Origin: an uncultured Mycoplasmatota bacterium
GTDB lineage: Bacteria > Bacillota_I > Bacilli_A > RF39 > UBA660
Length of the DNA: 64,000 nt
NCBI GenBank assembly: GCA_900547225.1
Contig: URFW01000001.1
Location: forward strand, 49,106-113,105
Direction of reading: 5' to 3'
Both the position numbers and the translations under genes were made by a program. This document shows, piece after piece, positions 21,895 through 39,919 of the stretch. Position 1 is the first letter of the stretch; each line of letters opens with the position of its first letter. The notes beneath the pieces are model-generated. The model did no database searches. It was not told where the DNA came from and worked only from the letters and a program-made list of their open reading frames with translations.

Positions 21895-22293
21895 ATGAAA
21901 TCAGAGATTATTGTAACCGGAATTTTGAAGTGTGATGATTTATTTTTAATAGTTAGAAGAAGCAAAAACGATGATTTTTATCCAGGATCTTGGGAATTTC
22001 CTGGAGGTCATTTAGAAGATGGTGAGACTTTAAATGAAGCACTTAAAAGAGAACTTGAAGAAGAAATAGGATACACTTTGGATTCTATTCCTATTATTAC
22101 TAATTATTTTGATGAAGTAAAAACTTTTGAAAATAAACTTGTTCATAATTTAGAAATAGATTTTATTATTACTGTGGATAAAACAAAATTAAACATAAAA
22201 CTAAGTAATGAACATTCTGAGTATAAATGGGTTAAAAAAGATTCTAGATATTTAGATAATTTTATAAAAAATAAATTAAAGAATATTTATTGA
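21895..22293 (+). CDS. NUDIX hydrolase
   Basis: Nudix box GGHLEDGETLNEALKRELEEEIG. Confidence 0.85.
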   Translation: MKSEIIVTGILKCDDLFLIVRRSKNDDFYPGSWEFPGGHLEDGETLNEALKRELEEEIGYTLDSIPIITNYFDEVKTFENKLVHNLEIDFIITVDKTKLNIKLSNEHSEYKWVKKDSRYLDNFIKNKLKNIY

Positions 22294-23240: not shown

Positions 23241-24320
23241 ATGAGAAATATAGAATTAGTTATACCTAAATTAGAAGAATATTCTTATGAAGAAAAATTA
23301 AAAAAAGATCCTAATACAATGAGTTATAATGCTGGGTATGATGTTAAATATTCTGGTTATCATTATGATACTGGTTGTATTAATTTTACTGTGGATAAGT
23401 GGAAGGATGCTTATGATAAAAGAATAAAGGAAAATAGATATTTTGCATACATAAAAGATTTTGATATTAATGAATATGTTGGATATGTTAATTACCAATA
23501 TGATAAAGAACAAAATATTTATGAATGTGGTATTTTAATTGAATATAAATATAGAGGTAAAGGTTATTCTAAAGATGCTTTAAAATTACTTATAAAAGAA
23601 GCTTATAATAATGGCATAGAATACTTATACGATACTTTTGAAAAAGATAGAGAAAATACATTAAAATTATTTTTAGACGTTGGATTTAAAATATATAAAG
23701 AAGAAACTTGGAAGAAGTTTAATAAGGATGTATCAGGAGCTATTGTTAGAATAAATACAAGTAGTATATTGCCTAATATTTCTAAGATAAGAAGTATATA
23801 TGATGTTTTTTCTTTTATGGAAAATAATATTAGATATGGATGGTTAGATATCAATAAAAATATTCATATTGGAAACATGAAGAATTTTAGAAAGTTATAC
23901 AGAACTATGACTATTGATGAGATACTAAGTTATGGTATTGGTACATGTATAGATCAAGTTTATTTGATGCACTATATTTTAAATAATATAGGTATAAAAA
24001 ACAAGATGTTTGCGACTAGAATATATGAACCAGATGATTTTGATGATTTAACAAAAGAAGAACATATGCATTGTTTTATACTTTGCTATGCTAATGATAA
24101 GGTTTATCATATAGAGCATCCTAATTGGTATGAAAAAGGAATTTATGAATATAAAAACGAAGATAAAGCACTAAAAACAATAAATGAATATTATGTAAAA
24201 CTATCAAATGGAATTTCAAGACCAATAACTGAATTTTATGATGTTAAGCCAAATATGTCATTTAAGGAATTTAATTGTTATATAAATAGTTTAAATTGTA
24301 ATCATAATTATGATGTTTGA
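23241..24320 (+). CDS. GNAT acetyltransferase fused to a transglutaminase-like/papain-like Cys-His domain
   Basis: GNAT core (YRGKGYSKDALKLLIKEA). C-terminal GIGTCIDQV ... HMHCFIL ... HIEHPN arrangement. Confidence 0.55.
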   Translation: MRNIELVIPKLEEYSYEEKLKKDPNTMSYNAGYDVKYSGYHYDTGCINFTVDKWKDAYDKRIKENRYFAYIKDFDINEYVGYVNYQYDKEQNIYECGILIEYKYRGKGYSKDALKLLIKEAYNNGIEYLYDTFEKDRENTLKLFLDVGFKIYKEETWKKFNKDVSGAIVRINTSSILPNISKIRSIYDVFSFMENNIRYGWLDINKNIHIGNMKNFRKLYRTMTIDEILSYGIGTCIDQVYLMHYILNNIGIKNKMFATRIYEPDDFDDLTKEEHMHCFILCYANDKVYHIEHPNWYEKGIYEYKNEDKALKTINEYYVKLSNGISRPITEFYDVKPNMSFKEFNCYINSLNCNHNYDV

Positions 24321-24332
24321 GGTGTTAAAGAA

Positions 24333-24815
24333 ATGGAAATAATAGAATACAATGATAAATATTTAGAAGATGTTAAAGATTTACTAGTAGAATTAGAAGA
24401 ATATATACTGTCCATAGATGAAGATGCATTAGACCAGTTACATAAAGAATACAGAGATAAAATGGCTATCTTAGATTTAAAAGAGGTAAATGATAATAGT
24501 GGTAAATGCTATTTAATGATAGATGGTGATAAAGTAATTGGATTAATTATGGGATATGTTAGGGTTTATGATAAATATGATTATTTAGATTACAAATGTC
24601 CAAAATGCGGTAAAATATCAGAATTAATTATTTCTAAGCATGCAAGAAGTAAGGGTGTAGGCCAAAAACTAATTAAAAAAATGGAAGAATATTTTAAACA
24701 AATAAATTGTGAATATATCTTAATAGATGTTTTTGCTTATAATAAAAATGCTATTAAATTTTATAATAGGCAAGGGTATCATACAAGGGAGATTATTAAT
24801 ATTAAGAAGATATAA
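24333..24815 (+). CDS. GNAT family N-acetyltransferase
   Basis: ARSKGVGQKLIKKMEE acetyl-CoA binding motif (Q/RxxGxG/A). Confidence 0.8.
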   Translation: MEIIEYNDKYLEDVKDLLVELEEYILSIDEDALDQLHKEYRDKMAILDLKEVNDNSGKCYLMIDGDKVIGLIMGYVRVYDKYDYLDYKCPKCGKISELIISKHARSKGVGQKLIKKMEEYFKQINCEYILIDVFAYNKNAIKFYNRQGYHTREIINIKKI

Positions 24816-24839
24816 AAAATATGAATGGAGACATAATGA

Positions 24840-25340
24840 ATGAATAGTTATAAATGTGTAATAGCGGATAAAGATTTAATTATAAAAAAATGGGATTGTG
24901 AAATAAAAAAACATAATAATTCAAAATTATGGATACAGTTTAAAAAAGAATCACTAAAAAATTTAGATACAAGAATTGTCTATATGGGATTATTAAATGG
25001 TGAAATAATTGCGGAAGCAACAGCGATAGTTTCTGAATATGATTTTAATATGCAAAATAAAGATGGTTTAATAGGAGATAAAAAAGCATATTTAACAGCA
25101 TTTAGAACGAATAAAGAATATGAAAACAAAGGATACTTTTCTAAACTTTATAAATTTATGGAAAATGATTTAAAAAAAAGAGGTTTTAAATATTTAACTC
25201 TTGGAGTAGAACCTTATGAAATAAGAAATATACAAATATATTTTAAATGGGGCTTTATAAAGTATATAAAGACTGATTATGAATATTATTCATCTGGTGA
25301 GAAAGTAATTGTTAATTATTATGAAAAAACATTGAAGTAA
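24840..25340 (+). CDS. GNAT-like acetyltransferase
   Basis: Size and the YENKGYFSKLYKFMEN motif A region. Confidence 0.6.
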   Translation: MNSYKCVIADKDLIIKKWDCEIKKHNNSKLWIQFKKESLKNLDTRIVYMGLLNGEIIAEATAIVSEYDFNMQNKDGLIGDKKAYLTAFRTNKEYENKGYFSKLYKFMENDLKKRGFKYLTLGVEPYEIRNIQIYFKWGFIKYIKTDYEYYSSGEKVIVNYYEKTLK

Positions 25341-25381
25341 TTATGATATAATTAAAATGAATTTAATAAGAGGTATATACT

Positions 25382-25960
25382 ATGAAAAAAGAAATAGAAA
25401 TAACAGTTAGAGTAAATGTCGGTTATGAAAAACTAGAAGAGGAATTAAAACGAAATAATTTTATAAAAAAAGAAGAATATATAGTAAATGATTCATATTT
25501 AATTAATAGTTCAATAAATATAACAGATATGAAAAGTTTAGATATACTTAAGAAATGTGTTTTAGTAAGAGATATAGTTGGAATTTTAAAACAGTTATTA
25601 TATAAATATAAAAAATATGATAGTAATGGAGATATAATTGAACAAGGGAAAATAAAATGTCCTGTTACTGATATAAATAAAGCGATGGAATTTATGAATG
25701 CTATAGGATATGAAAAATTATTTGATATACATGATAAATGTATAGTTTTTGCAAATGATAAAACCGAGTTAGTTGTTCAACTAGTTAATGATAAATATAT
25801 TTTTATAGAAATGGAGTCTGAACCTCAATATATTAACAGAAAATATGAAAATGTAGAAGAATTAAAAGATGATATATGTAGTTATAATCTATCAATAGAT
25901 AAATCTAATTTCTTTGTAAAAAAGGCAGAATTAATTTTAAATGAAACGTTAAATAGATGA
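25382..25960 (+). CDS. CYTH-domain protein (CyaB/thiamine-triphosphatase-like)
   Basis: N-terminal EIEITVRV (ExExK-like) and later VLVRD, LLYKYKKY and IFIEME strands in CYTH order. Confidence 0.5.
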   Translation: MKKEIEITVRVNVGYEKLEEELKRNNFIKKEEYIVNDSYLINSSINITDMKSLDILKKCVLVRDIVGILKQLLYKYKKYDSNGDIIEQGKIKCPVTDINKAMEFMNAIGYEKLFDIHDKCIVFANDKTELVVQLVNDKYIFIEMESEPQYINRKYENVEELKDDICSYNLSIDKSNFFVKKAELILNETLNR

Positions 25961-25975
25961 TAGGAGATGATGCAT

Positions 25976-26530
25976 ATGAAAAAGATAGTTTATGTAACAG
26001 GAAATTGGTCTAAACTTATGAGTGCTAAAAAAATATTAGAACCGCTTGGTATAGAGGTTGAAAACGTTAAAATGGAAACAACGGAAATTCAGGCGGACTC
26101 AACTGAGGAAATTGCAATACATTCTGCAAAAGAAGCAAGTGATAAGTTAAAATGTGCTGTATTAAAGAATGATACAGGTTTGTATGTTGAAGCATTAAAT
26201 GGCTTTCCAGGACCATATACACATTATGTTGATGAAAAAATAGGAGAGGATGGATTGTTGAAACTTCTTGATGGGGTTCAAAATAGAAATGCATGTTTTA
26301 TTGAAGCATTTGCATATTGTGAGTATGGCAAGGAACCTGTCGTATTTAAATCTGTGACAAATGGTAAAATAGCTAGAGAAAAGTCTGGAACTTATGGTTG
26401 GAGTTGGGATTTTATATTTATACCAGATGGATATGATAAAACTATGGCAAATTATCCTGACGATGAAAGATGTTTTATTTGGAATACTGATGCATATAAT
26501 AAACTTGCTGATTTTTTAAAAGAAAAATAA
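25976..26530 (+). CDS. Non-canonical purine NTP pyrophosphatase (Ham1/RdgB/ITPase family)
   Basis: VTGNWSKL...E..ADS...A..KA, then FPGPYT. The third ATG (25976) has proper spacing from AGGAG. Confidence 0.8.
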   Translation: MKKIVYVTGNWSKLMSAKKILEPLGIEVENVKMETTEIQADSTEEIAIHSAKEASDKLKCAVLKNDTGLYVEALNGFPGPYTHYVDEKIGEDGLLKLLDGVQNRNACFIEAFAYCEYGKEPVVFKSVTNGKIAREKSGTYGWSWDFIFIPDGYDKTMANYPDDERCFIWNTDAYNKLADFLKEK

Positions 26531-26540
26531 TTTATAAAAT

Positions 26541-26591
26541 AAAAAATTCAATCTATAGATATTTAAGTATATCTTATGGATTGAATTTTTT
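26541..26591. terminator. Long bidirectional hairpin terminator
   Basis: AAAAAATTCAATC ... GATTGAATTTTTT with an internal extension. Confidence 0.6.
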
Positions 26592-26788
26592 AATTGTTTA
26601 TATTTCTTTCTAAAGAATAAAAACTTTTATTTCCAAAAATATATTCACCTACAATTTTCTTTTTAAAATCAGTATATTTATTATTAGGCATAAAAACAGA
26701 ACCTTTTTCTTAAGATTCTATTTTATATGTAACTAGTTTTTTTAGTGTACAAAATGGGTTTACTTCTTTTTCTAATGCTTTGGTTTTA

Positions 26789-27286
26789 TCATTTTGTTGA
26801 ATTTAAGAATTCTTTACATTTATGGAAGAATGCAACTTGGTCATTTGTTAGTATCTTGAGTTTTTCCATTTTATTTAGTTCTTCGATTGAAAACCATTTT
26901 ATTTCTGTTAGTTCTTCTTTTTGTATATTTAATGAATTGATATTGATATCCATATGTACGTAATACATTTTATAACACTCATCTCCATCGCATCCACTGT
27001 TAAATTCCATTATTTTTTGATTTGAAATATCTAGACTTAATTCTTCTTTTACTTCTGTGATAATTCCTTCATATGGTGTTTCACCGCTTTTAGGGTGCCC
27101 ACCAGTTACTCCCCAGTTTCCACCCTTTTTTTGCACTCTCTTTTGCATTAAAAATTCTCATTTACTGTTTTCAATTGCAATCATGACAACCATAGGATAG
27201 TATCCATTTGGTATTTTATCACCCTTGTAATAAGTTAAATCGGTTTTATTGCTATTGATGTCATATAAATCTCTTTTTTCTTTCAT
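26789..27286 (-). pseudogene. NUDIX hydrolase interrupted by a single in-frame TGA
   Basis: The frame is continuous over 498 nt: MKEKRDLYD...VVMIAIENSK-TGA-EFLMQKRVQKKGGNWGVTGGHPKSGETPYEGIITEVKEELSL (Nudix box). The stop is at 27158-27160 on the minus strand. The ORF track shows only the downstream 119 aa. Confidence 0.7.
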
Positions 27287-27471
27287 ATTAATCTCTATTC
27301 CTTCCATTTTGTTGAAAATACATATACTGTGAACAAAATCATTTTTTTAAATTGTTCTTCAACTTAATTTTATTATTAATAATTTTATGTGTCAAGTTTG
27401 TTGGAGTTATAAAAAATGTGGTTATTTTATGATTCTTGGTAAAATATATGTTAAAAAACAATTTAAAGTTA

Positions 27472-27500
27472 TTGACTTTCAAAAAAAAATATAGTAAATT
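27472..27500 (+). promoter_or_regulatory. Putative sigma-A promoter of the RiPP cassette
   Basis: TTGACT, 17-nt spacer, TAAATT, about 70 nt upstream of the precursor ORF. Confidence 0.4.
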
Positions 27501-27569
27501 CTAGGTAGATAATTAGTTATTGGCAGTATTTATAGTAGCAATTATCAAATATATTATAAGGAGGTTACT

Positions 27570-27662
27570 ATGAAAACAAAAAGACCAATAAAAAAGTGTA
27601 CAATTAATAAAATGTTTGGTTCTTGTCATTTCAGTAAAGGTGATGGTTGGCAAAGTAAATAA
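27570..27662 (+). CDS. RiPP precursor peptide, streptide-like (KGDGW motif), 30 aa: MKTKRPIKKCTINKMFGSCHFSKGDGWQSK
   Basis: Not in the ORF track because it is below the length cut-off. SD AAGGAGG (27558-27564), 5-nt spacer, ATG. It lies 45 nt upstream of a rSAM/SPASM gene. The C-terminal nonapeptide SKGDGWQSK resembles streptide AKGDGWKVM. Confidence 0.7.
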   Translation: MKTKRPIKKCTINKMFGSCHFSKGDGWQSK

Positions 27663-27690
27663 AGGATTATGCCTTTATTTACTTATTTTT
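27657..27690 (+). terminator. Weak hairpin overlapping the precursor stop codon (possible partial terminator or processing signal)
   Basis: AAATAAAGG-ATTATG-CCTTTATTT followed by a T-rich tail. Confidence 0.4.
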
Positions 27691-27707
27691 ATGTATAGGG
27701 AGAATTT

Positions 27708-29051
27708 ATGAAATACAATAATGAATTTATATTAAGATTTGAATTCTTTGGTGGATTAATGTATTCTAGTTTTGATCAGGGTATATATATAATTGACTAT
27801 ATGGATTCAGTATTTTTGGATTGCATAAAGAATAAATATAAGTATGAAACATCTATCAAGATTGTTGAAAAAGTATTTGATTGTGATCATTATAAACCAA
27901 ATATTAAAGAAATGTTAAATTACGGTTTTTTAACTAAATCAAGTGAAATTAAAGATTATGAAAATGATTATAATTGTTGGAATATAAAAGAATATAAAAA
28001 AATTATATCAAAAGCACAAAAAAGAAAATATTTGAGTTCACCTATAGAAGTTAGTATTTATCCATCTAGTTTCTGCCAATTGAATTGTAAATTTTGTTAC
28101 TTTTCTAATAAAAAAAACAAATATGTGAAATGTAATTCAAGTGAGAGCTGGATTAAATTAATCGATGTTTTAAAAGAAAAAAATGTAATATATTTATCAA
28201 TCTTAGGAGGAGAACCAACTCTTTATTATGATATTGATAAAATTTTAATCCATGCAAATAAAATAAAAATGAAGACTACAATAACAACAAATGGATTACA
28301 TATAAAATCAAGTACTTTTGATATTATATGTAAAAGTAAGTATATAACTCCTACTATTTCTATTCAAAGTTTAACAGAACACAACTATAAATATATGGGT
28401 GTAAGTAGTAATAAAATCGTAAAAACAATAGATAAATTTATAGAAAAAGGTAAAATACCAAGAATTAATTCAGTGATATATAATCAAAGTAAAGAAGAAA
28501 TATATGAATTGATTGATTTTTGTGTTTTGAGAGGCATTACTCAATATTCTTTAAATATATATATGCCTTTAGGAAATTCATTGAGAGACAAAGATGACTT
28601 TTCATATTATAAAGAGCTTGATTGTAACATACAATCTTATTTACTGAAGAAGAAGTATAATAACATTTCTGTGAATATACAAGGATGTTTATTTTATTCA
28701 GCATTTTATGATGAATGCGATAGTCCGGTTAAAAATGAATTTGATAAAATAATATATGGCTGTGAAGCAGGTCAAACGAAGGTTGAAATAATGCCTGATG
28801 GCACATTGTTACCTTGTACAGCTTTTGATATAAATGATTTTAATTATGAAAATGTTTTTGAAAAAAATTTTAATGATATATGGGAAAATTCATATAGTTT
28901 GAATATTTTACGAAATTATAAAATAGAAGATAAAAAATGTGCTAAATGTAAATATAATGATTTTTGTAATGGTGGATGTCCTGCATATAATGTAAGAAAA
29001 AATAAATCTTTAACAAAGAAAGGTGATGACAGGTGCAAAGTGGTTTTATAA
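27708..29051 (+). CDS. Radical SAM enzyme with SPASM domain (StrB-like peptide-modifying maturase)
   Basis: CQLNCKFC (CX3CX2C). Full SPASM pattern: CEAGQTKVEIMPDGTLLPC (CX12GX4C), CAKCKYNDFCNGGC (CX2CX5CX3C) and a final Cys in DDRCKV. An N-terminal region of about 110 aa precedes the SAM motif (RRE-like position). Confidence 0.9.
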   Translation: MKYNNEFILRFEFFGGLMYSSFDQGIYIIDYMDSVFLDCIKNKYKYETSIKIVEKVFDCDHYKPNIKEMLNYGFLTKSSEIKDYENDYNCWNIKEYKKIISKAQKRKYLSSPIEVSIYPSSFCQLNCKFCYFSNKKNKYVKCNSSESWIKLIDVLKEKNVIYLSILGGEPTLYYDIDKILIHANKIKMKTTITTNGLHIKSSTFDIICKSKYITPTISIQSLTEHNYKYMGVSSNKIVKTIDKFIEKGKIPRINSVIYNQSKEEIYELIDFCVLRGITQYSLNIYMPLGNSLRDKDDFSYYKELDCNIQSYLLKKKYNNISVNIQGCLFYSAFYDECDSPVKNEFDKIIYGCEAGQTKVEIMPDGTLLPCTAFDINDFNYENVFEKNFNDIWENSYSLNILRNYKIEDKKCAKCKYNDFCNGGCPAYNVRKNKSLTKKGDDRCKVVL

Positions 29052-30781
29052 ATGAAGAAGATTATAAAAATATGAATAAATATGAAGAACAACTATTAGT
29101 TTTAAAGCAATTTGTAAGAGACAATGAATGGTATAATATGCTCAAATTTGATATTGCACTTAACCCGAAGTTAGCTGAAGAAATAGTTGGAATTATAAAA
29201 AGCATAGACATAAATAATTTTAACTCAGATGATTATAAAAATATTATATTAACTTTGAGAAATAAGTGTATGAAATTAAAAAATATGGCTGATTCTACTA
29301 GTGATACAATATTAAAATGGTATAACTATAGATGGGCCTACGCATATTATGGTTTGATTGAAGTAATAACTGAAGGATCTTTAGTTACTGATAAAATATT
29401 AAGCACATTTAAAGAAAAATATGGGAATGCCTATTTAGATTTTATTAAAAAAATCGATAAACATGTACCATCTAGCTTAACAAATTTTTCGGTTTCAAAT
29501 ACAAATGATATAGATTTAAGTGATGAAAATATAAAAATATATTTACTAATGAAATATTTTCAAGACGATCAACATATTTTCCATGAACAAATACTTATAA
29601 AAGATCATCAAAACGCAAGAAGAAATTTTGAGGCTATTGTAAAAAAAGAATATCCTCATCTGAATAAAGTTAATGGTAAAAATTTACTTATGTTAGTTAT
29701 TCTAGATAATATTCCTATAATAGATATTAATATATTATCAAGATTTATAATTGCTACAGGAAATAAGGATTTATCATATATAATTGGTGGTAAGGGATTA
29801 GGTCTTTCTATATTAAATACTAATGGTTTTAATATTCCTAAAACTTATATAATCCCAGTTACATCACTAAAAGAAGAATTATATAAAGGAAAAATTCAAG
29901 AATTGAAAAATATTAACTATTCTGTAAGAAGTTCAGCAACCGTTGAGGATAATGAAAATAATTCATTTGCAGGAATGTTTACATCAGTATTAGATGTTGA
30001 AAAACCAAATTTATCAAAAGCAGTTGAAGTTGTTAAAAGATCAATTAACAATCCAAGAGTTGTTTCATATGTAAATCATTTCAACACAGATAAACCTTAT
30101 ATGTCTGTGGTAATTCAAAAATATAAAGAACCAACACTGTCTGGTGTGTGGATAGGTAATGATATTAATAGTGGATATTTAGAATGGGTAAATGGCAACG
30201 GAGAAAAATTGGTGAGTGGACATGTCAAACCAATATCTGAAAAATGGCCAAATAACAATGAAGAAGATAATTTAATGGTTAAAAATGAATGTGTGGGAAA
30301 TTACTGTTTAGAATTGCAAAGAAAATTAAATGCCAGTGCAGATTTAGAATGGTGTATATTGGATGGTGAATTAGTTTGGTTACAATATAGACCTGTAACA
30401 AAAAAAATAGAATATGAAGAAAACAAGAAAAGTATTGATGGTGAATCATTTGTTGGTGTTGCGGCATCTTCTGGTGAAATAATTGGAAGACCATTTTATT
30501 TGGATGATCCAAATGATGTTGATAAATTTATAGAGGGAAGTATTTTGCTAACAGAATATACAGATCCGGATTGGGTACCTGTCATTCTTAAAAGTTCGGG
30601 AATAATAACGGCTGAAGGTGGATTTTTATCACACACAGCTATCATTTCAAGAGAATTAGGAATTCCTTGTGTAACTGGATTAGGATATGATGTTATAAAC
30701 AAATTAAAAGAAGAAGATCAAATTGAAGTTAATGGAAGTAGTGGATGTGTAAAAAAATATATATTAAAAAGAAAAATATAG
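29033..30781 (+). CDS. PEP-utilising-family enzyme: unknown helical N-domain plus PPDK_N-type ATP-grasp plus swivel phospho-His domain
   Basis: GGKGLGLSILNTNGFNIP and YSVRSSATVEDNENNSFAGMF (PPDK_N/PEP synthase/rifampin phosphotransferase-type). C-terminal TAEGGFLSHTAIISRELGIPCV (mobile His domain). GTG start overlaps the rSAM gene by 19 nt; ATG 29072 is an alternative. Confidence 0.8.
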   Translation: MQSGFINEEDYKNMNKYEEQLLVLKQFVRDNEWYNMLKFDIALNPKLAEEIVGIIKSIDINNFNSDDYKNIILTLRNKCMKLKNMADSTSDTILKWYNYRWAYAYYGLIEVITEGSLVTDKILSTFKEKYGNAYLDFIKKIDKHVPSSLTNFSVSNTNDIDLSDENIKIYLLMKYFQDDQHIFHEQILIKDHQNARRNFEAIVKKEYPHLNKVNGKNLLMLVILDNIPIIDINILSRFIIATGNKDLSYIIGGKGLGLSILNTNGFNIPKTYIIPVTSLKEELYKGKIQELKNINYSVRSSATVEDNENNSFAGMFTSVLDVEKPNLSKAVEVVKRSINNPRVVSYVNHFNTDKPYMSVVIQKYKEPTLSGVWIGNDINSGYLEWVNGNGEKLVSGHVKPISEKWPNNNEEDNLMVKNECVGNYCLELQRKLNASADLEWCILDGELVWLQYRPVTKKIEYEENKKSIDGESFVGVAASSGEIIGRPFYLDDPNDVDKFIEGSILLTEYTDPDWVPVILKSSGIITAEGGFLSHTAIISRELGIPCVTGLGYDVINKLKEEDQIEVNGSSGCVKKYILKRKI

Positions 30782-30797: not shown

Positions 30798-31532
30798 ATG
30801 ATTTTATTTTTAACAAGTAATGTTGGTGGAGTAAAAAAAGAAAATGGCAAAAAATATCCTGTTAGATTTTTCGAAAAAAACAAATTTTTAAATAATTTAA
30901 AAAAGAACTTAACAGAAACGAAAAAATTTTTGTTAATTGCGAGCAATCCAGATGATTATGAAAAGAATGATTTATTTTTGAAAATGGATATAAAAGCATT
31001 GGAATTAAGCGGTTTACATTTTGATGAATATGTTGTATTAGACGGAAGAAATTCAAATAAAGTTAAATCAGTCTTAAATGGTGTAAATTTGATATTTTTA
31101 TGTGGAGGTAATACATTAACACAAAATAATTTTTTAAATCGTATTAATCTAAAAAAATATTTAAAAAAAATTGATTCTGTTGTTGTCGGGATAAGTGCAG
31201 GATCAATTAATTCTGCAAAAAATGTGTTCAATAGTCCAGAAAGTGACACTGATCTGAATAATTCACCTTATTTACAAGGCTTAGAATTAACAAATATAAA
31301 TATTGAACCTCATTTTAGCGTCAATAATTTAAATGATGATTCAAAAAAAATTCAAATGAATGCTATATTATCTGAGTCTAATAATAGACTATTATATGGT
31401 TTGACGGATGGATCATACATTATTAAAAATGGCTCAAAATGTACTTTATATGGAGAAAGTTACAAAATACAAAATGGAAATATTATAAAAATTTGTGAAG
31501 ATGATAATTTTATTGATATTGATGATATTTAA
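30798..31532 (+). CDS. Peptidase family S51 (dipeptidase E/cyanophycinase-like)
   Basis: LCGGNTLTQNNFL, nucleophile motif VVGISAGSINS and IEPHF His motif. Confidence 0.75.
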   Translation: MILFLTSNVGGVKKENGKKYPVRFFEKNKFLNNLKKNLTETKKFLLIASNPDDYEKNDLFLKMDIKALELSGLHFDEYVVLDGRNSNKVKSVLNGVNLIFLCGGNTLTQNNFLNRINLKKYLKKIDSVVVGISAGSINSAKNVFNSPESDTDLNNSPYLQGLELTNINIEPHFSVNNLNDDSKKIQMNAILSESNNRLLYGLTDGSYIIKNGSKCTLYGESYKIQNGNIIKICEDDNFIDIDDI

Positions 31533-31649: not shown

Positions 31650-31861
31650 GTTAATTAAAAAGCGATTCATTCGAAGTAATTATTTTAATTTATTTATAGA
31701 AAGCTTATGGTTGATGAAAATAAGTATAGTTAAAGTGATGAATTACAAATGATGATTTTAAACGGATAATCTCGTTAAAGATTAGAGGTAATAAACATTT
31801 ATTACGAATTAAGGTGGTACCACGGTTACTAATCGTCCTTTATTTAAGGATGATTTTTTTG
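31650..31861 (+). promoter_or_regulatory. T-box leader (tyrosine specifier) with intrinsic terminator
   Basis: T-box sequence AATTAAGGTGGTACCACGG (31808-31826). TAC followed by A at 31744-31747 as candidate specifier. Terminator AATCGTCCTT-TATTT-AAGGATGATT plus T-run (31831-31861). Upstream of tyrS. Confidence 0.85.
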
Positions 31862-33390: not shown

Positions 33391-33873
33391 ATGATAAGAA
33401 AAGCGATTAAAGAAGATGCAAAAGATATTGTTAGAATTAACGTTAATTCTTGGAAGGAAACGTATAGAAAAATATTTCCTACTGATTTTTTAGATAAACT
33501 TGATAGTAAAAATATTTCGGCAATAGAAAGATGTAAGGAAAAAATAGAAGAGTATGTTGTTTATGAACAAGAAGGTAAAATAGTTGCAATGGCGCGATAT
33601 GGAATAAACAAGAAAGGCTATGATAAAGCATATGCTGAAATTTATGCATTATATGTTGATTTAGAATATAAAAATCAAGGTATTGGAACAAAAATGATAG
33701 ATTATATATTTAAAATATTAAAAAATGATTTTAAATATGTATTGATTAGTACTTTAAAAGAAAATAGTGCTAATGAGTTTTATAAAAAAATATGTGGAAA
33801 ACTTATTGGAGAATGTAATTTTTCACTAATGGGAAATAATTATTTAGAGAATTTATATCAATATGTATTATAG
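33391..33873 (+). CDS. GNAT family N-acetyltransferase
   Basis: YKNQGIGTKMIDYIFK motif A. Confidence 0.8.
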   Translation: MIRKAIKEDAKDIVRINVNSWKETYRKIFPTDFLDKLDSKNISAIERCKEKIEEYVVYEQEGKIVAMARYGINKKGYDKAYAEIYALYVDLEYKNQGIGTKMIDYIFKILKNDFKYVLISTLKENSANEFYKKICGKLIGECNFSLMGNNYLENLYQYVL

Positions 33874-33885
33874 GAGGAAGAACTT

Positions 33886-34434
33886 ATGAAATATTTTAAG
33901 AAATTTGTAGGACATAGATTATATTTATCACCAATGAATATTTTAGATGCTGAAAAATATACCATGTGGATGAATGATAGAAGTGTAACGGATCCAACTG
34001 GTAGTACTGTTAAAATTACTTCTATAGAAGGAGAAAAAGAATGGATTACTAATGCGTCCAAAACTGGTGATGCAAACTTTGCAATAGTAGATATTAAAAC
34101 TGATGAACTTTTAGGTAATTGTTCATTGTTAAATATTGATAGAATAAATAGATGTTGTACAGTAGGAATTTTTATTGGAGATGAAGAAAATAGGAATAAA
34201 GGCTATGGAGCGGAAGCGTTAAGATTACTTTTGAATTATGCTTTTAATATGGAAAATATGCATAATGTTAATCTAGAAGTATTTTCATTTAACGAAAGAG
34301 CAATTAAATGTTACTCGAAAGTGGGATTTAAAGAGTATGGAAGAAGACATGAAGTATACTTTTTAGATGGTAAATATCATGATAAGATTGAAATGGAAAT
34401 ATTAGAAAATGATTTTAGAAAAGAAAGTAATTAA
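33886..34434 (+). CDS. GNAT acetyltransferase, RimJ/RimL-like
   Basis: NRNKGYGAEALRLLLNYAF, NERAIKCYSKVGF. Confidence 0.85.
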   Translation: MKYFKKFVGHRLYLSPMNILDAEKYTMWMNDRSVTDPTGSTVKITSIEGEKEWITNASKTGDANFAIVDIKTDELLGNCSLLNIDRINRCCTVGIFIGDEENRNKGYGAEALRLLLNYAFNMENMHNVNLEVFSFNERAIKCYSKVGFKEYGRRHEVYFLDGKYHDKIEMEILENDFRKESN

Positions 34435-34556
34435 ATATATAAGTATAAGCTTATTTTGATGCTACTAATAGTTTTTATAATTAGTAGCATTTTTATATAT
34501 TGAAAAAATATAATATGTAATTTAAAATGATAATAGATATGGAAGGTGATTACGTT

Positions 34557-35261
34557 ATGGAAAAGATAGAGAATGAATACTTTGTAATAAATTATTCTAA
34601 ATCCTTGAGTGAAATAGTTAAAAAAATGATTAGCATTTCTACTAAAAAAGTGCCAGAAATATTTGCATTTTTCCACATTAAAAGTTATAGAAAAGTAACT
34701 GTTAATTTATTTGATAGTATAGATGAATTTAAATATTTTGTATCTGATTTAAGAGGCATTAGTAAAGATCAATTACCAGAATATTGTAAGGGTACTTTTG
34801 ATTGTGGAATGATTAATCATTATATAGAGCCTAACATTATGAAAGGAAGTTTTCTATATAATACTAGAATTTGTTCTATTTTCCATGAATTAGTTCACGT
34901 TATTTATTATGAAATTATTTTAAATAAAAATTATAAAGATAGAGTTATCTGGTTAGATGAGGGACTTGCAATGAATCTATCCGGAGAATTTCAAAATGTT
35001 TTGCTTGATGATATATTAGATAAGGTATTATCATTTAAGGAGATGCCAAACATGAATGAGATTTCTCATGGTTTGGCATTTGTAAATGATAAGTATGATG
35101 GATATATAGCAAGTTTTATTTCAGTAAATTATTTGCTTGAAACGCTAAATAACAATGAATTATTAAACATTATAAAAAACAAGGATATGATATATGAAAT
35201 AGGTGAAGATGTACTTAATAATGCCATTAGATATTATAATGATAAAAAGATAAGGAGATGA
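34557..35261 (+). CDS. Putative zinc metallopeptidase (HExxH, Peptidase_MA_2-like)
   Basis: FHELVHVIY plus downstream WLDEGLAMN. ATG 34557 follows GGAAGGTGA. Confidence 0.55.
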   Translation: MEKIENEYFVINYSKSLSEIVKKMISISTKKVPEIFAFFHIKSYRKVTVNLFDSIDEFKYFVSDLRGISKDQLPEYCKGTFDCGMINHYIEPNIMKGSFLYNTRICSIFHELVHVIYYEIILNKNYKDRVIWLDEGLAMNLSGEFQNVLLDDILDKVLSFKEMPNMNEISHGLAFVNDKYDGYIASFISVNYLLETLNNNELLNIIKNKDMIYEIGEDVLNNAIRYYNDKKIRR

Positions 35262-35266
35262 TAAAG

Positions 35267-35851
35267 ATGGATAAACTAAAACATGTAAAGCCTCTTAAAG
35301 AACACGAAAAAGATGCTATTAATTACATAAAAGAATTTTACGAATATAATTCCAATATAAATGGAGCAGGCAGTTTGCATAGATATTTAAATGATTATGA
35401 TGGTTGGTTAAAAAAGCTAGATGATGATAGGAATCGTATTCCAAGTGAAGAAAAAGTTCCTGCTGAAACTTATTTTTTGGTTAGAGAAAGTGATAATAAA
35501 ATAGTTGGAATGATAAACATTAGATTAGTGTTAAATGAAAGATTAAGAAAAGAAGGAGGCCATATAGGCTACGGAATAAGACCTACTGAAAGAAGAAAGG
35601 GTTATAACAAAATTAATCTTTATTTAGGACTAAAATGTTTAAAGAATCATGGTGTTAAAGAGGCGTTTCTGGACTGTGATAAAGATAATTTAGGATCAGC
35701 AAAAACGATTAAGTCTCTTGGAGGAAGACTAATAGGGGAATATTACAATGATGATATAAAATGCATAGTTCAAGATTATTTGATAGATATAGAAAAATCG
35801 TTAAGTAAAAACGAAAAAATATATGAACCTATAATAGATAAGGAAAAATAA
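35267..35851 (+). CDS. GNAT-like acetyltransferase
   Basis: GGHIGYGIRPTERRKGY and SAKTIKSLGG motifs. The second ATG has proper SD spacing. Confidence 0.65.
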   Translation: MDKLKHVKPLKEHEKDAINYIKEFYEYNSNINGAGSLHRYLNDYDGWLKKLDDDRNRIPSEEKVPAETYFLVRESDNKIVGMINIRLVLNERLRKEGGHIGYGIRPTERRKGYNKINLYLGLKCLKNHGVKEAFLDCDKDNLGSAKTIKSLGGRLIGEYYNDDIKCIVQDYLIDIEKSLSKNEKIYEPIIDKEK

Positions 35852-37203: not shown

Positions 37204-37225
37204 AAAGTGGAGGAAGTGATAATTT

Positions 37226-38206
37226 ATGACTAAAATAATAGAAATTAAACACCTATCTAAAACGTTTAAAATAAAAGAAAAAGAAAAGGGATTTAAAGGA
37301 AGTTTAAAATCTATAATTAAACCAAAATACAGGTTGAAAAAGGCAGTTAACAATATTAATTTGTCAATTGATAAAGGAGAAATTATAGCATTTATAGGAC
37401 CTAATGGAGCAGGTAAGTCAACAACTATAAAGATGCTAACTGGTATACTTTGCCCAAGCAGTGGAGGGGCAATAGTCTCAGGAATCAATCCTGCTAAACA
37501 AAGAAAAAAATTAGCATACAAGATAGGAACGGTATTTGGACAAAAAGAGCAATTATGGACTCATTTAACTCCTTATGATAATTTTAAATTTTTTGGAGCG
37601 ATATACGATTTAAAGGACTATGAAATAGAAAAAAGAATAAAAGAGTTAAATGATACTTTAGAGCTTAATGATTTTATAAATACACCAGTTAGAAACCTAT
37701 CATTAGGTCAAAGAATACGTTGTGAAATAGCAGCTAGCTTAATTCATAAACCAGAAATATTATTTTTGGATGAACCAACAATAGGTCTTGATCCTGTTGT
37801 AAAGGAAAATATAAGGGTTTTAATTAAGCGAATGAACAAAGAATTTGGAACAACCATATTTTTAACAAGTCATGATGTTGGTGATATAGAAAAACTTTGT
37901 AAACGTGTAATTATTATAAACGATGGAAAAGTTGTACTTGATGATTCTATGTCAAATTTAAAGTATAATTATTTAAATAAAAAAATAATTGAAGTTAAAA
38001 TGAAAGAAAAAGTTAATTTAAGTGATGAAGATGGTATAACTGTTTTAAAAGATAAAGGCTATAGCCTAAAACTTTCAATTGATGTATCTAAAAAGAGTGT
38101 TTCAGACGTAATAAAAATGTTAGATACAGATAAAATAATTGATATTAATATATCTAATGAGCCACTAGAAAACATAATTGCAAATATATATAAAGGTAGT
38201 AAATGA
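37226..38206 (+). CDS. ABC transporter ATP-binding protein
   Basis: Walker A GPNGAGKST, signature LSLGQR, Walker B LFLDEPT. Confidence 0.9.
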   Translation: MTKIIEIKHLSKTFKIKEKEKGFKGSLKSIIKPKYRLKKAVNNINLSIDKGEIIAFIGPNGAGKSTTIKMLTGILCPSSGGAIVSGINPAKQRKKLAYKIGTVFGQKEQLWTHLTPYDNFKFFGAIYDLKDYEIEKRIKELNDTLELNDFINTPVRNLSLGQRIRCEIAASLIHKPEILFLDEPTIGLDPVVKENIRVLIKRMNKEFGTTIFLTSHDVGDIEKLCKRVIIINDGKVVLDDSMSNLKYNYLNKKIIEVKMKEKVNLSDEDGITVLKDKGYSLKLSIDVSKKSVSDVIKMLDTDKIIDINISNEPLENIIANIYKGSK

Positions 38207-39000
38207 TGAGAAAATATGTTGAAGTATATAAAGCAACATTAATAGAAGAATTACAGTATGCTAAAGGGTTTTTACTTAACTTTATAGGTACTTTAATTCA
38301 TATATTTATATTTTTTGCATTATGGAAATACTTATATTCTAGTGGGGATAAATCTATAATTAATGGTTATACTTTAGTTCAAATGATTTGGTATGTTACT
38401 TTTACCGAGTTTTTAACTAGTTTTTCATCAAGTAATATCTTAAGAAAAACACCAACTAATGACATAGTAAGTGGTAATATAGCCTATGCATTAAATAAGC
38501 CTTATGATTACACAGGTTATATATTTGCAAGATTTTTTGCAGAATCAACAATAAAGGGAATAGTTAACTTAATATGTTCTATAATATTAGGTTTAATTTT
38601 AATAGGGCCAATAAAAACGTTTGATATAAGATTTTTGCCATTTATGATAATAAGTATTATCTTGGCTATAATAGTTGCGGCCTTGATAAGATTAATAATT
38701 AGTTATTTATCTTTTTGGGTGGAAAATTCAGAACCTTTTCAGTGGCTTTTTAAAACGATTTTCTTAATATTCGGTGTTACTTTTCCACTTGAGATGTTTC
38801 CTATGTATATAAGACCAATAATTAGATATTCTCCCGTTTATGCAGCTCTATCAGGTCCTGTTAAAATGATAATTAATTTTAACATAAACGAGTATTTAGG
38901 AGTTATCTTATCTCAATTATTTTACATAGTACTTCTTATTATAATATTAAAATTTGAATATAAGAAAGGAGCTAGAAAGTTAAATGTTAACGGAGGTTAA
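38203..39000 (+). CDS. ABC-2 family permease
   Basis: Six-TM profile. The ATGA start overlaps the ATPase gene. Confidence 0.65.
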   Translation: MMRKYVEVYKATLIEELQYAKGFLLNFIGTLIHIFIFFALWKYLYSSGDKSIINGYTLVQMIWYVTFTEFLTSFSSSNILRKTPTNDIVSGNIAYALNKPYDYTGYIFARFFAESTIKGIVNLICSIILGLILIGPIKTFDIRFLPFMIISIILAIIVAALIRLIISYLSFWVENSEPFQWLFKTIFLIFGVTFPLEMFPMYIRPIIRYSPVYAALSGPVKMIINFNINEYLGVILSQLFYIVLLIIILKFEYKKGARKLNVNGG

Positions 39001-39775
39001 AAATCAATTAAAAGTAAGTTTTCTATCCATTAAATATAGTGCTATAAGGGCAATGACAAATAAAAAGTCATTCTTATTTAGTGTCTTGTTAATGTTTGTA
39101 TCTAATGCTTCCTTTTTGGTACAATGGACAGTTATTTTATCAGTGTCTAGTAGCAGTGATTTATCTATGAAAGAAATATTAATGGTGTGGGGTTTTGCAG
39201 CGACTTCGTTTGGACTTGCCAACATAATATTTGGCGGAGCTATGTTTATTCCATATTATGTAGAAGATGGAAAGCTTGATGCATATTTGGTTCAACCTAA
39301 AAGCGTTTTGCTAAACATTTTAAACTCGCATTGTTCGATGAGTGCTTTTGGAGATTTGATATATGGTTATTTAGTTATTCTTATTGCATCACCTTCTATT
39401 AAAACGTTTATATATTTAACGTTATTTAGCGTTTGTGGTGCGATAACATATACTTCATTTATAGTTATTTTATATTCCTTGTTATTTTTTAGTTTGAATT
39501 TTAGAGAACTTTCTGATACTTTAATTAGGGTTCCGACATCATTTTCAACCTATCCAGAAGGAATATTTAAAGGTTTTATAAAAATACTTTTATATACCGT
39601 ATTTCCAGTAGCATTAATCGTTTATTTGCCAGTAAGAAGTCTTCTTACTAATAATCCTTTAATATTACTTATAGTAGGATTTTTAACAGTGATAATATCA
39701 TTGTTCTCGTTTTTAATATTTAATTTAGGATTGAAAAAATATTCATCAACAAATCTAATGGGTTCAAGAACGTAA
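38984..39775 (+). CDS. ABC-2 family permease (second subunit)
   Basis: Polytopic. Overlaps the preceding permease by 17 nt. Confidence 0.65.
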   Translation: MLTEVKNQLKVSFLSIKYSAIRAMTNKKSFLFSVLLMFVSNASFLVQWTVILSVSSSSDLSMKEILMVWGFAATSFGLANIIFGGAMFIPYYVEDGKLDAYLVQPKSVLLNILNSHCSMSAFGDLIYGYLVILIASPSIKTFIYLTLFSVCGAITYTSFIVILYSLLFFSLNFRELSDTLIRVPTSFSTYPEGIFKGFIKILLYTVFPVALIVYLPVRSLLTNNPLILLIVGFLTVIISLFSFLIFNLGLKKYSSTNLMGSRT

Positions 39776-39919
39776 GACATAAATATTAAACTTATATTTA
39801 TGTCTTATTTTATGCCATAAAATAAGGCTTTTTAAGTCTTTACAATTTTATTTTTCTAATTAAAGTGGAAATAATGCATAATTTATAGTATAATAATTAT
39901 CGTATGAGAGGTGAGGATA

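What the first reader, a model, noticed from the sequence alone, without database searches (positions are those of the whole stretch)
27570..27662. Unannotated 30-aa precursor whose last nine residues mirror streptide and which also carries two Cys
The translation is MKTKRPIKKCTINKMFGSCHFSKGDGWQSK, with SD AAGGAGG 5 nt upstream. The C-terminal SKGDGWQSK aligns residue for residue with AKGDGWKVM, with K23 and W27 at the crosslink positions. Unlike streptide precursors as I remember them, the upstream part is strongly basic and has Cys10 and Cys19. These could be extra rSAM substrates (thioether) or a disulfide. Ser18, Ser22, Ser29 and Thr11 offer hydroxyl acceptors for a phosphotransferase.
Basis: partly seen in the sequence, partly recalled or inferred. 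Interest (0 to 1): 0.8.

Follow-up and report, generated by a model that had tools for sequence, protein, structure and literature searches.

The report
Streptide-like peptide with dikinase partner
The 30-codon gene is a real, conserved precursor of a streptide-type cyclic peptide, but it belongs to an apparently undescribed branch of that family in which the usual exporter gene is replaced by an ATP-driven phosphotransferase, found mainly in uncultured gut bacteria.

Summary
Window 27570-27662(+) encodes MKTKRPIKKCTINKMFGSCHFSKGDGWQSK behind an AAGGAGG ribosome-binding site. KGDGW occurs once in all six frames (0.001 expected). A K-x3-W short ORF lies upstream of nearly every homologous rSAM gene retrieved, across Bacilli/'Tenericutes' MAGs, Clostridia, streptococci and CPR bacteria. 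The KGDGW codons show pS 0.58 and pN 0.

The adjacent rSAM/SPASM enzyme matches SuiB end to end (E 8e-72), so a Lys23-Trp27 crosslink is the likely reaction (inferred).

This is not a classic str operon. There is no StrC-type exporter and no Rgg. Instead, a 582-aa dikinase-type enzyme follows: a new helical domain, an ATP-grasp and a swivel His534, without a PEP/pyruvate barrel. Its start codon lies inside the rSAM's last conserved codons, a 19-nt overlap kept across phyla. This enzyme family recurs in at least three other rSAM/YcaO peptide cluster types.

Its acceptor site is unknown. Cys19 alternates with Ser.

The S51 peptidase is a resident neighbour. Strains 98-99% identical in the flanks lack the 5.5-kb island 25308-30781.

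I found no description in the searchable literature. Verdict: new variant of a known kind.

The parts
27558..27564 (+). Shine-Dalgarno AAGGAGG, 5 nt before the precursor ATG
   Evidence: Read directly. A GGAGG-type SD 5-9 nt upstream is present in all 19 related precursor loci.
27570..27662 (+). Precursor peptide gene (30 aa): basic leader (about residues 1-17), recognition/core region FGSCHFSKGDGW, tail QSK. Lys23 and Trp27 are the predicted crosslink partners.
   Evidence: (pS 0.58 / pN 0 on KGDGW).
27653..27694 (+). 13-bp hairpin overlapping the stop codon, followed by a T-run. Terminator/attenuator-like element between the precursor and the rSAM gene.
   Evidence: dG -14.9, z -2.2. A hairpin at the same position but with a different sequence occurs in L001-L004, L041, L043, L046, L049 and in classic streptide loci. 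Function is inferred.
27708..29051 (+). StrB/SuiB-type radical SAM/SPASM peptide cyclase (447 aa) with N-terminal RRE-like region
   Evidence: Pfam Radical_SAM + SPASM. TIGR04080 is the best hit at 284 bits, below the 500-bit cutoff. SuiB 5v1q E 8e-72 over residues 5-443. CX3CX2C (C123/127/130) plus 8 further invariant Cys.
29033..30781 (+). Dikinase-type phosphotransferase (582 aa): novel all-helical N-domain (1-~250), ATP-grasp (PPDK_N, ~250-465), swivel phosphohistidine domain (TAEGGFLSH, His534). No PEP/pyruvate TIM barrel. GTG start lies inside the rSAM's last conserved R-C codons (19-nt overlap).
   Evidence: pLDDT 90; PPDK/RPH top folds; N-domain has no PDB match; conserved overlap; co-occurrence.
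26789..27307 (-). NUDIX hydrolase gene, divergent from the precursor, interrupted by an in-frame TGA at 27158-27160 where homologs have Gly. Possible accessory gene, probably inactivated here.
   Evidence: It is 42% identical to the NUDIX domain upstream of the precursor in L003 and to the NUDIX domain fused to the dikinase in L035 (P0083).
25308..30781 (.). Strain-variable 5,474-bp island carrying a 192-aa ORF, a Ham1-like NTPase, NUDIX, the precursor, the rSAM and the dikinase. The right edge is the dikinase stop codon.
   Evidence: Four contigs 98-99% identical in both flanks have about 206 bp of unrelated remnant in its place.
30798..31532 (+). Peptidase S51 (244 aa). Resident gene next to tyrS, NOT a dedicated cluster component, although it may be co-transcribed here.
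   Evidence: Pfam; present, at >=90% identity, in strains that lack the island.

Best explanation
The ORF is the precursor (StrA-like) of a streptide-family radical-SAM RiPP, carried on a small strain-variable island in an uncultured, low-GC gut Bacillota ('Tenericutes'/RF39-like; this affiliation is inferred).

Proposed pathway:
1. The peptide is translated from its own SD. A hairpin at its stop codon probably lets more precursor than enzyme transcript accumulate (inferred).
2. The adjacent SuiB-like rSAM/SPASM enzyme binds the KxF-x-S-C-H-F leader/recognition stretch and joins Lys23 to Trp27 by a C-C bond, as StrB, SuiB and AgaB do (inferred from homology, not shown).
3. A translationally coupled three-domain dikinase uses ATP to load its swivel His534 and passes a phosphoryl group to an acceptor bound by its novel helical N-domain. 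The acceptor is most probably the (crosslinked) peptide (inferred). The acceptor atom is unknown. The only side-chain nucleophile kept in all partner precursors, apart from the crosslinked Lys and Trp, is the Cys/Ser 4-5 residues before the Lys.
4. No dedicated exporter or leader peptidase is encoded, so trimming and export, if any, use unlinked functions.

Sub-claim confidences: genuine KxxxW precursor 0.95; Lys-Trp crosslink 0.8; dikinase acts on the peptide 0.55.
For: Precursor:
- Exact ORF and SD.
- Motif unique in the window.
- A K-x3-W ORF lies upstream of the rSAM in 24 of 26 loci in the first scan and in the further metagenome loci, across phyla.
- Codon-level purifying selection: KGDGW pS 0.58 / pN 0, with Ser codon-family switches.

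rSAM:
- Full-length match to SuiB.
- TIGR04080 is the best NCBIfam hit.
- All Fe-S Cys are invariant.

Dikinase:
- It directly follows the rSAM in 16 loci from at least 13 lineages.
- Its identity tracks that of the rSAM (66/69, 53/53, 45/48, 39/39 %).
- The 19-nt overlap with the start codon inside the R-C codons is kept in 9 loci.
- ATP-grasp and T-x-x-G-G-x-x-x-H motifs are invariant in 45 homologs.
- The confident model resembles PPDK and RPH.
- Dikinases of this type phosphorylate hydroxyl substrates via the swivel His (PMC12167813).
- 9 of 10 independently sampled contexts of the dikinase family hold rSAM and/or YcaO genes plus a 39-52-aa ORF.

rSAM tree: exporter-type (classic) enzymes form one clade, dikinase-type enzymes form the rest.
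Against: - No chemistry was observed. The crosslink and the phosphoryl transfer are both inferred from homology.
- The rSAM and the precursor score below NCBIfam's equivalog cutoffs (284 < 500; 13.8 < 35), so identical regiochemistry is not guaranteed.
- No residue that is conserved specifically in dikinase-type precursors stands out as acceptor. Ser/Cys at K-4 is also present in streptococcal precursors. Asp is absent from L051's KGKQW core.
- The N-domain has no structural relative, so peptide binding is a guess.
- One family member (L068) sits in no visible RiPP context.
- In L035 the dikinase persists although strA and strB have decayed, so it is not strictly tied to KxxxW peptides.
- Expression is untested.
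Confidence: 0.8

Rival explanations
1. Self-protection or prodrug logic. The dikinase is not a biosynthetic tailoring enzyme. Like rifampin phosphotransferase, it inactivates the mature cyclic peptide (or a competitor's) inside the cell by phosphorylation, and a phosphatase reactivates it on or after release.
For: Closest structural and functional relatives are resistance or scavenging dikinases. Phosphatase-type genes sit next to the dikinase in some loci: HAD in L002, PP2C in L035. No exporter or immunity gene lies in the island. The dikinase survives where strA/strB have decayed.
Against: The conserved translational coupling to the rSAM gene and co-inheritance fit a pathway enzyme better. 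Phosphatase neighbours are not conserved. Streptide itself has no known toxicity ('function not characterized', PMC13361665).
Confidence: 0.2
2. Peptide-derived intracellular metabolite or cofactor. As with PQQ and mycofactocin (SPASM rSAM enzyme plus peptidases, no exporter), the crosslinked Lys-Trp unit is excised and phosphorylated to give a small molecule used inside genome-reduced cells.
For: No exporter in any dikinase-type locus, whereas classic loci always carry an MFS gene. Peptidases sit next to the cluster in several loci: M16/PqqF-like in L023 and L024, S51 in the window. The system occurs in reduced-genome lineages: CPR loci L006 and L067, and 'Tenericutes' MAGs. The tails after Trp are highly variable, and in L002 the peptide ends at Trp.
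Against: The island is strain-variable within one species, which is unusual for an essential cofactor. S51 is a resident gene, not part of the island. No partner enzyme that would use such a cofactor is linked. An ABC-2 exporter lies 6.4 kb away, and general peptide exporters could serve.
Confidence: 0.1
3. One reading: Cys10 and Cys19 form a disulfide, or are additional rSAM substrates (thioether), making a bicyclic product.
For: Cys19 is invariant in the Bacilli/'Tenericutes' clade (10 distinct sequences). Other dikinase-associated precursors are Cys-rich.
Against: Cys10 is confined to this species. Cys19 is Ser in L023, L024, L053, L006 and L067, and in streptococci. There is only one rSAM gene, and it is SuiB-like. 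By analogy with streptide, whose mature form starts at K-1, position K-4 would be removed with the leader (PMC9389541).
Confidence: 0.07
4. An ordinary orthologue of the streptococcal str operon, i.e. already known. The downstream genes are unrelated metabolic neighbours.
For: Same core motif and the same rSAM family.
Against: No StrC/MFS gene and no Rgg. Both gene products fall below the NCBIfam equivalog cutoffs. The rSAM lies outside the classic clade. The dikinase gene overlaps the rSAM gene in a conserved way across phyla and co-varies with it. The dikinase lacks the TIM barrel needed for PEP synthase or PPDK activity.
Confidence: 0.03

Closest known systems
Streptide / KxxxW RaS-RiPPs (StrA-StrB-StrC of S. 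thermophilus; SuiA/SuiB; AgaA/AgaB; TIGR04079/TIGR04080)
   Same: Short precursor ending in K-G-D-G-W. A homologous leader segment (KV[LF]xS..). An rSAM/SPASM cyclase homologous over its full length to SuiB with all Fe-S ligands. Precursor immediately upstream of the rSAM with a hairpin between them.
   Different: No StrC exporter/peptidase and no Rgg/SHP regulator. A dikinase gene is translationally coupled to the rSAM. The leader is basic, not acidic, and has a conserved Cys at K-4. Both proteins fall below the NCBIfam cutoffs. The hosts are uncultured gut Bacilli, Clostridia and CPR bacteria, not streptococci. The cluster lies on a strain-variable island.
Rifampin phosphotransferase and small-molecule dikinases (RPH; HpeHI, CreHI, PpsAB)
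   Same: ATP-grasp plus swivel His domain with T/SxxGGxxxH. A third domain that binds the acceptor. No PEP/pyruvate barrel. Top structural matches.
   Different: The domain order is helical domain, ATP-grasp, swivel (RPH: ATP-grasp, RIF-binding, swivel). The helical domain has no detectable similarity to the RIF-binding domain or to any PDB fold. The genomic context is peptide maturation, not antibiotic resistance or aromatic catabolism.
PEP synthase / pyruvate phosphate dikinase
   Same: PPDK_N and PEP-utilizers domains. These are the best sequence hits in NCBIfam and the PDB.
   Different: It lacks the C-terminal PEP/pyruvate TIM barrel, has an extra N-terminal domain, and scores far below the equivalog cutoffs (158 versus 598 bits). 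It cannot be a PEP synthase.
Kinase-tailored RiPPs (HPr-kinase-like lasso peptide kinases; LanL / class III-IV lanthipeptide kinase domains). Recalled from my own knowledge, not tested here.
   Same: ATP-dependent phosphorylation of a ribosomal peptide as a tailoring or activation step.
   Different: Those are P-loop or protein-kinase folds that transfer the gamma-phosphate directly. This enzyme is a His-swivel dikinase (ATP to AMP). I found no paper reporting this class in RiPP pathways.
PQQ and mycofactocin pathways
   Same: SPASM rSAM enzyme crosslinking a short peptide. Peptidases nearby. No exporter.
   Different: There is no evidence for excision to a cofactor. The island is strain-variable. 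The rSAM is much closer to SuiB (E 8e-72) than to PqqE (E 1e-7).

Membership tests
Streptide / KxxxW RaS-RiPP family | Short precursor with a K-x3-W (KGDGW) core near the C-terminus | tested here: met
   KGDGW at residues 23-27. It aligns without gaps to StrA/SuiA-type peptides.
Streptide / KxxxW RaS-RiPP family | Adjacent StrB/SuiB-type rSAM/SPASM enzyme with an RRE-like N-terminus and three Fe-S clusters | tested here: met
   SuiB 5v1q E 8e-72 over residues 5-443. 11 invariant Cys. TIGR04080 is the top NCBIfam hit.
Streptide / KxxxW RaS-RiPP family | Scores above NCBIfam curated cutoffs (TIGR04079 >= 35 bits; TIGR04080 >= 500 bits) | tested here: not met
   13.8 and 284.3 bits. It is a relative outside the curated equivalog.
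Streptide / KxxxW RaS-RiPP family | StrC-type exporter/peptidase as the third gene | tested here: not met
   The third gene is a dikinase. MFS genes are found only in the classic loci L005, L013 and L022. There is no transporter on the island.
Streptide / KxxxW RaS-RiPP family | Rgg/SHP quorum-sensing control | tested here: not met
   No HTH/Rgg-type gene on the island. SHP-like ORFs were not specifically searched for.
Streptide / KxxxW RaS-RiPP family | Lys C-beta to Trp C7 crosslink in the product | not testable with these tools
   Needs MS/NMR of the enzymatic product.
Small-molecule dikinases (RPH / HpeHI / PpsAB type) | ATP-grasp (PPDK_N) nucleotide-binding domain with conserved motifs | tested here: met
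   PF01326 E 9.5e-26. GGK and RSSAxxED motifs are invariant in 45 homologs. The fold matches the PPDK/RPH ATP-grasp.
Small-molecule dikinases (RPH / HpeHI / PpsAB type) | Swivel domain with T/SxxGGxxxH phosphohistidine | tested here: met
   PF00391 E 1.2e-21. TAEGGFLSH with invariant H534. The motif is as defined in PMC12167813.
Small-molecule dikinases (RPH / HpeHI / PpsAB type) | Acceptor-binding domain homologous to the RIF-binding/HpeH substrate domain | tested here: not met
   The separately modelled N-domain (pLDDT 92.7) has no PDB match better than E 2.3 and TM 0.29.
PEP synthase / PPDK | C-terminal PEP/pyruvate-binding TIM barrel (PEP-utilizers_C) | tested here: not met
   The protein ends about 10 residues after the swivel domain. 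There is no such Pfam hit and the NCBIfam scores are far below the cutoffs.

The most novel reading that the evidence does not exclude
The His-swivel dikinase is a previously unrecognised class of RiPP-pathway enzyme. It is translationally coupled to rSAM maturases and ATP-phosphorylates, or otherwise activates, rSAM/YcaO-modified peptides. It operates in at least four precursor families (KGDGW, GNGNCSDCC, GGNYC, GCTGNGNC) in uncultured gut Bacilli, Clostridia and CPR bacteria. On this reading the well-studied streptococcal str operon is a derived, exporter-bearing offshoot of a broader dikinase-linked family, whose products may act inside the cell.
Probability: 0.4. Interest if true: 0.8.

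Novelty: new variant of a known kind. Interest (0 to 1): 0.62.

Why it matters
Streptide was the founding example of Lys-Trp crosslinked RaS-RiPPs. As of a 2026 review it is catalogued only from streptococci, and its function is still uncharacterised.

This locus shows three things:
- The family extends into uncultured human-gut 'Tenericutes'/Bacilli, Clostridia and CPR bacteria.
- Outside the streptococcal/classic clade, the conserved third gene is a dikinase-type phosphotransferase, not an exporter.
- The same enzyme family partners several other rSAM/YcaO peptide clusters.

If the dikinase modifies the peptide, that adds a new enzyme class and possibly a new modification to RiPP chemistry. 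It would also give a handle on what streptide-like peptides do. The system is small (three genes, about 3.2 kb) and can be tested directly by heterologous expression.

Tried and rejected
1. S51 peptidase as the cluster's leader peptidase: rejected. Strains with 98-99% identical flanks keep S51 next to tyrS but lack the island. S51 genes do recur near dikinase genes in another cluster type, but they are only about 27% identical to this one.

2. Asp25 carboxylate as the acceptor (G-D/N-G motif, aspartimide idea): weakened. L051's dikinase-linked precursor has KGKQW, with no Asp or Asn.

4. NUDIX as an obligatory partner: unresolved. There are three different arrangements in related lineages, including a fusion. 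However, the gene carries a premature TGA in the window and is absent from the more distant loci.

5. The 192-aa island ORF as a CYTH/triphosphatase (guessed from its EIEITVRV start): no support from Pfam or the PDB.

6. The N-domain as a homolog of the RIF-binding domain: no fold match.

The representative search returned only the allelic variant, one multi-core protein and two spurious repeat proteins.

8. Island as a mobile element: no flanking repeats, no GC anomaly, no integrase.

9. Literature: eight searches, plus targeted reading of four papers on streptide and rSAM-RiPPs (a fifth, on SuiB, was not held), found no description of a dikinase in streptide-type or other RiPP clusters. Subscription-only papers are not covered.

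10. The promoter scan is uninformative in this AT-rich DNA: 46 sites versus 44 in shuffles.

Full report
1. OBSERVATION

Window 27570-27662(+) translates to MKTKRPIKKCTINKMFGSCHFSKGDGWQSK*. AAGGAGG lies at 27558-27564, five bases before the ATG.

KGDGW occurs exactly once in the six-frame translation of the 64-kb, 27% GC window. About 0.001 occurrences are expected from composition.

The match covers not only A/S-KGDGW but also the upstream K-V-[LF]-x-S-[SC] segment.

2. THE ORF IS A REAL, SELECTED GENE

I searched from the neighbouring rSAM protein, not from the peptide. This gave 34 loci from species-representative genomes and 26 from metagenomes.

A short ORF carrying K-x3-W lies directly upstream of the rSAM gene in essentially every locus that has upstream sequence. 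These include:
- 'Tenericutes'/Bacilli MAGs (L001-L004, L041-L050);
- other Bacilli (L021);
- Clostridia/Lachnospiraceae (L013, L023, L024, L053);
- Clostridium zeae (L005) and Peptostreptococcaceae (L022);
- streptococci (L007-L019);
- two CPR lineages (Saccharibacteria L006, Patescibacteria L067).

L051 and L052 carry KGKQW and KGDKW, so K-x3-W is the true invariant.

All 19 dikinase-type precursor genes have a GGAGG-type SD. Over 13 distinct sequences, the five KGDGW codons show pS = 0.58 with pN = 0. The 12-codon core gives pN/pS = 0.31. Ser22 switches between the AGY and TCN codon families.

The exact peptide is called on 85 public contigs, and a K3A allele on 6 more.

3. ANATOMY OF THE LOCUS

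- A 13-bp hairpin plus T-run overlaps the precursor stop codon (27653-27694). Hairpins at the same place but of unrelated sequence occur in nine relatives and in classic streptide loci. This suggests an attenuator that sets the precursor:enzyme ratio (inferred).
- The rSAM gene (27708-29051) follows.
- A 582-aa gene follows, with its GTG start at 29033. That start lies inside the rSAM's final conserved Arg-Cys codons.
- The same 19-nt overlap (AGATGT, or AGGTGC in the window) is kept in L002, L003, L021, L023, L024, L041, L046 and L053, i.e. across Bacilli and Clostridia.
- tyrS downstream has its own promoter-like site and a T-box leader (31653-31843, 89.7 bits), so it is a separate transcription unit.

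4. THE rSAM ENZYME

It has Radical_SAM and SPASM domains. Its best NCBIfam model is TIGR04080, 'KxxxW cyclic peptide radical SAM maturase', at 284 bits, below the 500-bit equivalog cutoff.

It aligns with SuiB (PDB 5v1q) over residues 5-443 at E = 8e-72. The next best solved structures are SkfB (3e-11) and PqqE (1e-7).

In a 27-sequence alignment that includes an S. suis enzyme, CX3CX2C (C123/127/130) and eight further Cys are invariant. That is enough for the two auxiliary clusters reported for this family (PMC5491770, PMC9389541).

A Lys23-Trp27 C-C crosslink is therefore the best inference. It remains an inference.

5. THE THIRD GENE IS A DIKINASE-TYPE PHOSPHOTRANSFERASE, NOT STRC

Domains and motifs:
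- Pfam finds PPDK_N (ATP-grasp) and the PEP-utilizers swivel domain, but no PEP/pyruvate barrel.
- The GGKG start of the ATP-grasp lies at about residue 250.
- The phosphohistidine motif is TAEGGFLSH (His534). It matches the T/SxxGGxxxH signature of small-molecule dikinases, which phosphorylate hydroxyl substrates with ATP to AMP (PMC12167813).
- These motifs are invariant in 45 homologs.

Structure:
- An AlphaFold model (pLDDT 90, pTM 0.88) shows an all-helical N-domain (about 1-250), then the ATP-grasp, then the swivel domain.
- Foldseek ranks PPDK and rifampin phosphotransferase first.
- Modelled alone (pLDDT 92.7), the N-domain has no PDB match better than E = 2.3. It has its own invariant residues (E114, D142, S147, Y170, K174, D178). 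It is the natural candidate for the acceptor-binding domain.

6. TWO ARCHITECTURES IN THE FAMILY

Classic loci (L005, L013, L022) carry an MFS transporter after the rSAM. In streptococci this position is taken by the exporter StrC, according to the literature.

Dikinase-type loci are the window, L002-L004, L006, L021, L023, L024, L041-L046, L048-L051, L053 and L067. They carry the dikinase and no transporter.

The identities of the rSAM and the dikinase to the window's proteins fall in step (66/69, 53/53, 45/48, 39/39, 31/37 %), so the pair is inherited as a unit.

In an NJ tree of the rSAM proteins, the exporter-type enzymes form one clade. The dikinase-type enzymes make up the remainder (midpoint-rooted, so the polarity is tentative).

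The gene after the dikinase varies: S51 peptidase, an ABC-F-like ATPase, a HAD hydrolase, an M16 peptidase, DNA ligase.

7. S51 IS NOT PART OF THE CLUSTER; THE CLUSTER IS A STRAIN-VARIABLE ISLAND

Four contigs carrying an S51 protein at least 90% identical to the window's are 98-99% identical to the window on both sides. They lack window 25308-30781 and have about 206 bp of an unrelated gene remnant there instead.

The island carries a 192-aa ORF of unknown family, a Ham1-like NTPase, a NUDIX gene, the precursor, the rSAM and the dikinase. Its right edge is the dikinase stop codon.

It has no flanking repeats and no GC anomaly.

8. WHAT THE DIKINASE ACTS ON

I sampled the dikinase family independently of the rSAM. 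This gave ten distinct contexts. Nine of them hold rSAM and/or YcaO genes plus a 39-52-aa ORF:
- KGDGW + StrB-like rSAM (L067);
- aminotransferase + three rSAMs + dikinase + ...NKTLSMSMAGNGNCSDCC + YcaO, with or without S51 (L037/38, L069, L070, L075, L077);
- rSAM/SPASM + dikinase + ...GGNYCQD or ...GGNYCGDVC + YcaO (L039/40, L076);
- a dikinase-NUDIX fusion next to ...ACNNLDACGCTGNGNC + rSAM + PP2C + APH. In this locus only a decayed C-terminal remnant of strB survives upstream (L035/36).

Only L068 shows no peptide context.

The family is therefore a recurrent partner of rSAM-modified peptides. A role on the peptide is the most economical reading (my estimate: 0.55).

The acceptor cannot be read from conservation:
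- Thr11, Ser18, Ser22, Ser29 and Cys10 all vary.
- Asp is missing in L051.
- The one nucleophile kept in all dikinase-type precursors, besides Lys and Trp, is Cys/Ser at K-4 or K-5. But streptococcal precursors have Ser there too.
- By analogy with streptide, that position would belong to the removed leader.

9. RIVAL READINGS

- An RPH-like self-protection or prodrug kinase (0.2).
- A PQQ/mycofactocin-like intracellular product (0.1). This is suggested by the absence of exporters and by the presence in genome-reduced lineages. It is weakened by the island's strain variability.
- An ordinary str operon (0.03).
- A spurious ORF is excluded by the conservation evidence in section 2.

10. COMPARISON WITH WHAT IS KNOWN, AND NOVELTY

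The locus works like streptide at its first step, and it passes the two structural membership tests (motif and rSAM). It fails the curated score cutoffs, lacks StrC and Rgg/SHP, and carries a conserved additional enzyme.

The dikinase works like RPH or HpeHI in its ATP-grasp and swivel parts, but it has an unrelated acceptor domain.

A 2026 review lists streptides only from streptococci, with function not characterised. Eight literature searches, plus targeted reading, found no report of a dikinase in any RiPP cluster. Subscription-only literature is not covered, so prior description cannot be excluded.

Interest is 0.62.

Noticed in passing
window 25308-30781: The whole peptide cluster, plus a 192-aa ORF, a Ham1-like NTPase and a NUDIX gene, forms a 5,474-bp island. 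Contigs 98-99% identical on both sides lack it and carry about 206 bp of a histidine-phosphatase-like remnant instead. No flanking repeats and no GC anomaly.
   Followed up: yes
window 26789-27307 (-), TGA at 27158-27160: The NUDIX gene divergent from the precursor has an in-frame TGA where orthologs have Gly (ENSK-G-EFL). This is probably a GGA to TGA nonsense mutation. TGA is used as a stop elsewhere in the window.
   Followed up: partly
L035 5001-7250 and L036 (P0083 and relatives, ~745 aa): In a related lineage the dikinase is fused to the orthologous NUDIX domain. Upstream, only a decayed C-terminal fragment of the StrB-like rSAM remains (…KCVKCKYSNF*NGGCPVYN…). A different 44-aa Cys-rich precursor plus rSAM, PP2C and APH follows.
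   Followed up: partly
L037, L038, L069, L070, L075, L077: A recurrent, apparently undescribed cluster: aminotransferase, three rSAM genes, the dikinase homolog, a 40-aa ORF ending …NKTLSMSMAGNGNCSDCC, a divergent YcaO and often an S51 peptidase.
   Followed up: partly
L039, L040, L076: Another dikinase-linked cluster type: rSAM/SPASM (not seen on the short L076 contig), dikinase, a 39-40-aa ORF ending …GGNYCQD or …GGNYCGDVC, and YcaO. In L039/40 an AAA_33 kinase and a Ham1-like gene follow. A Ham1-like gene is also on the window's island.
   Followed up: no
P0243 (183 aa): A protein with three tandem repeats of EDVFDRAHFAKGDGWKTM behind a hydrophobic N-terminus. It may be a multi-core streptide-like precursor.
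   Followed up: no
window 31653-31843 (+): T-box leader upstream of tyrS, at 89.7 bits, just under Rfam's gathering score of 93. It has a terminator-like hairpin at 31831-31855.
   Followed up: partly
window 13120-13467 (+): RNase P RNA class B (290 bits), consistent with a Bacillota/Mollicutes-type host.
   Followed up: no
window 37204-39778: A second strain-variable segment encoding an ABC-2-type exporter (ATPase plus two membrane proteins). It is present in L073, which lacks the peptide island, and absent in L071, L072 and L074. It therefore varies independently of the cluster.
   Followed up: partly
window 23241-25340 and 33391-35851: An unusual concentration of GNAT acetyltransferase genes (at least six) flanking the island and tyrS. 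They are resident in related strains.
   Followed up: no
window 25382-25960 (+): A 192-aa island ORF with no Pfam, NCBIfam-type or PDB sequence match. Its EIEITVRV start suggested a CYTH/triphosphate-tunnel fold, but nothing supports that.
   Followed up: partly
window 29033-29780 (dikinase residues 1-~250): A confidently modelled all-helical domain (pLDDT 92.7) with no structural neighbour in the PDB (best Foldseek E 2.3). Its invariant residues are E114, D142, S147, Y170, K174 and D178.
   Followed up: yes
L071-L073 around 2372-2785 vs window 22289: Related strains carry an extra 137-aa NUDIX gene between the window's NUDIX (21895-22293) and the deaminase gene. The window and L074 lack it.
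   Followed up: no
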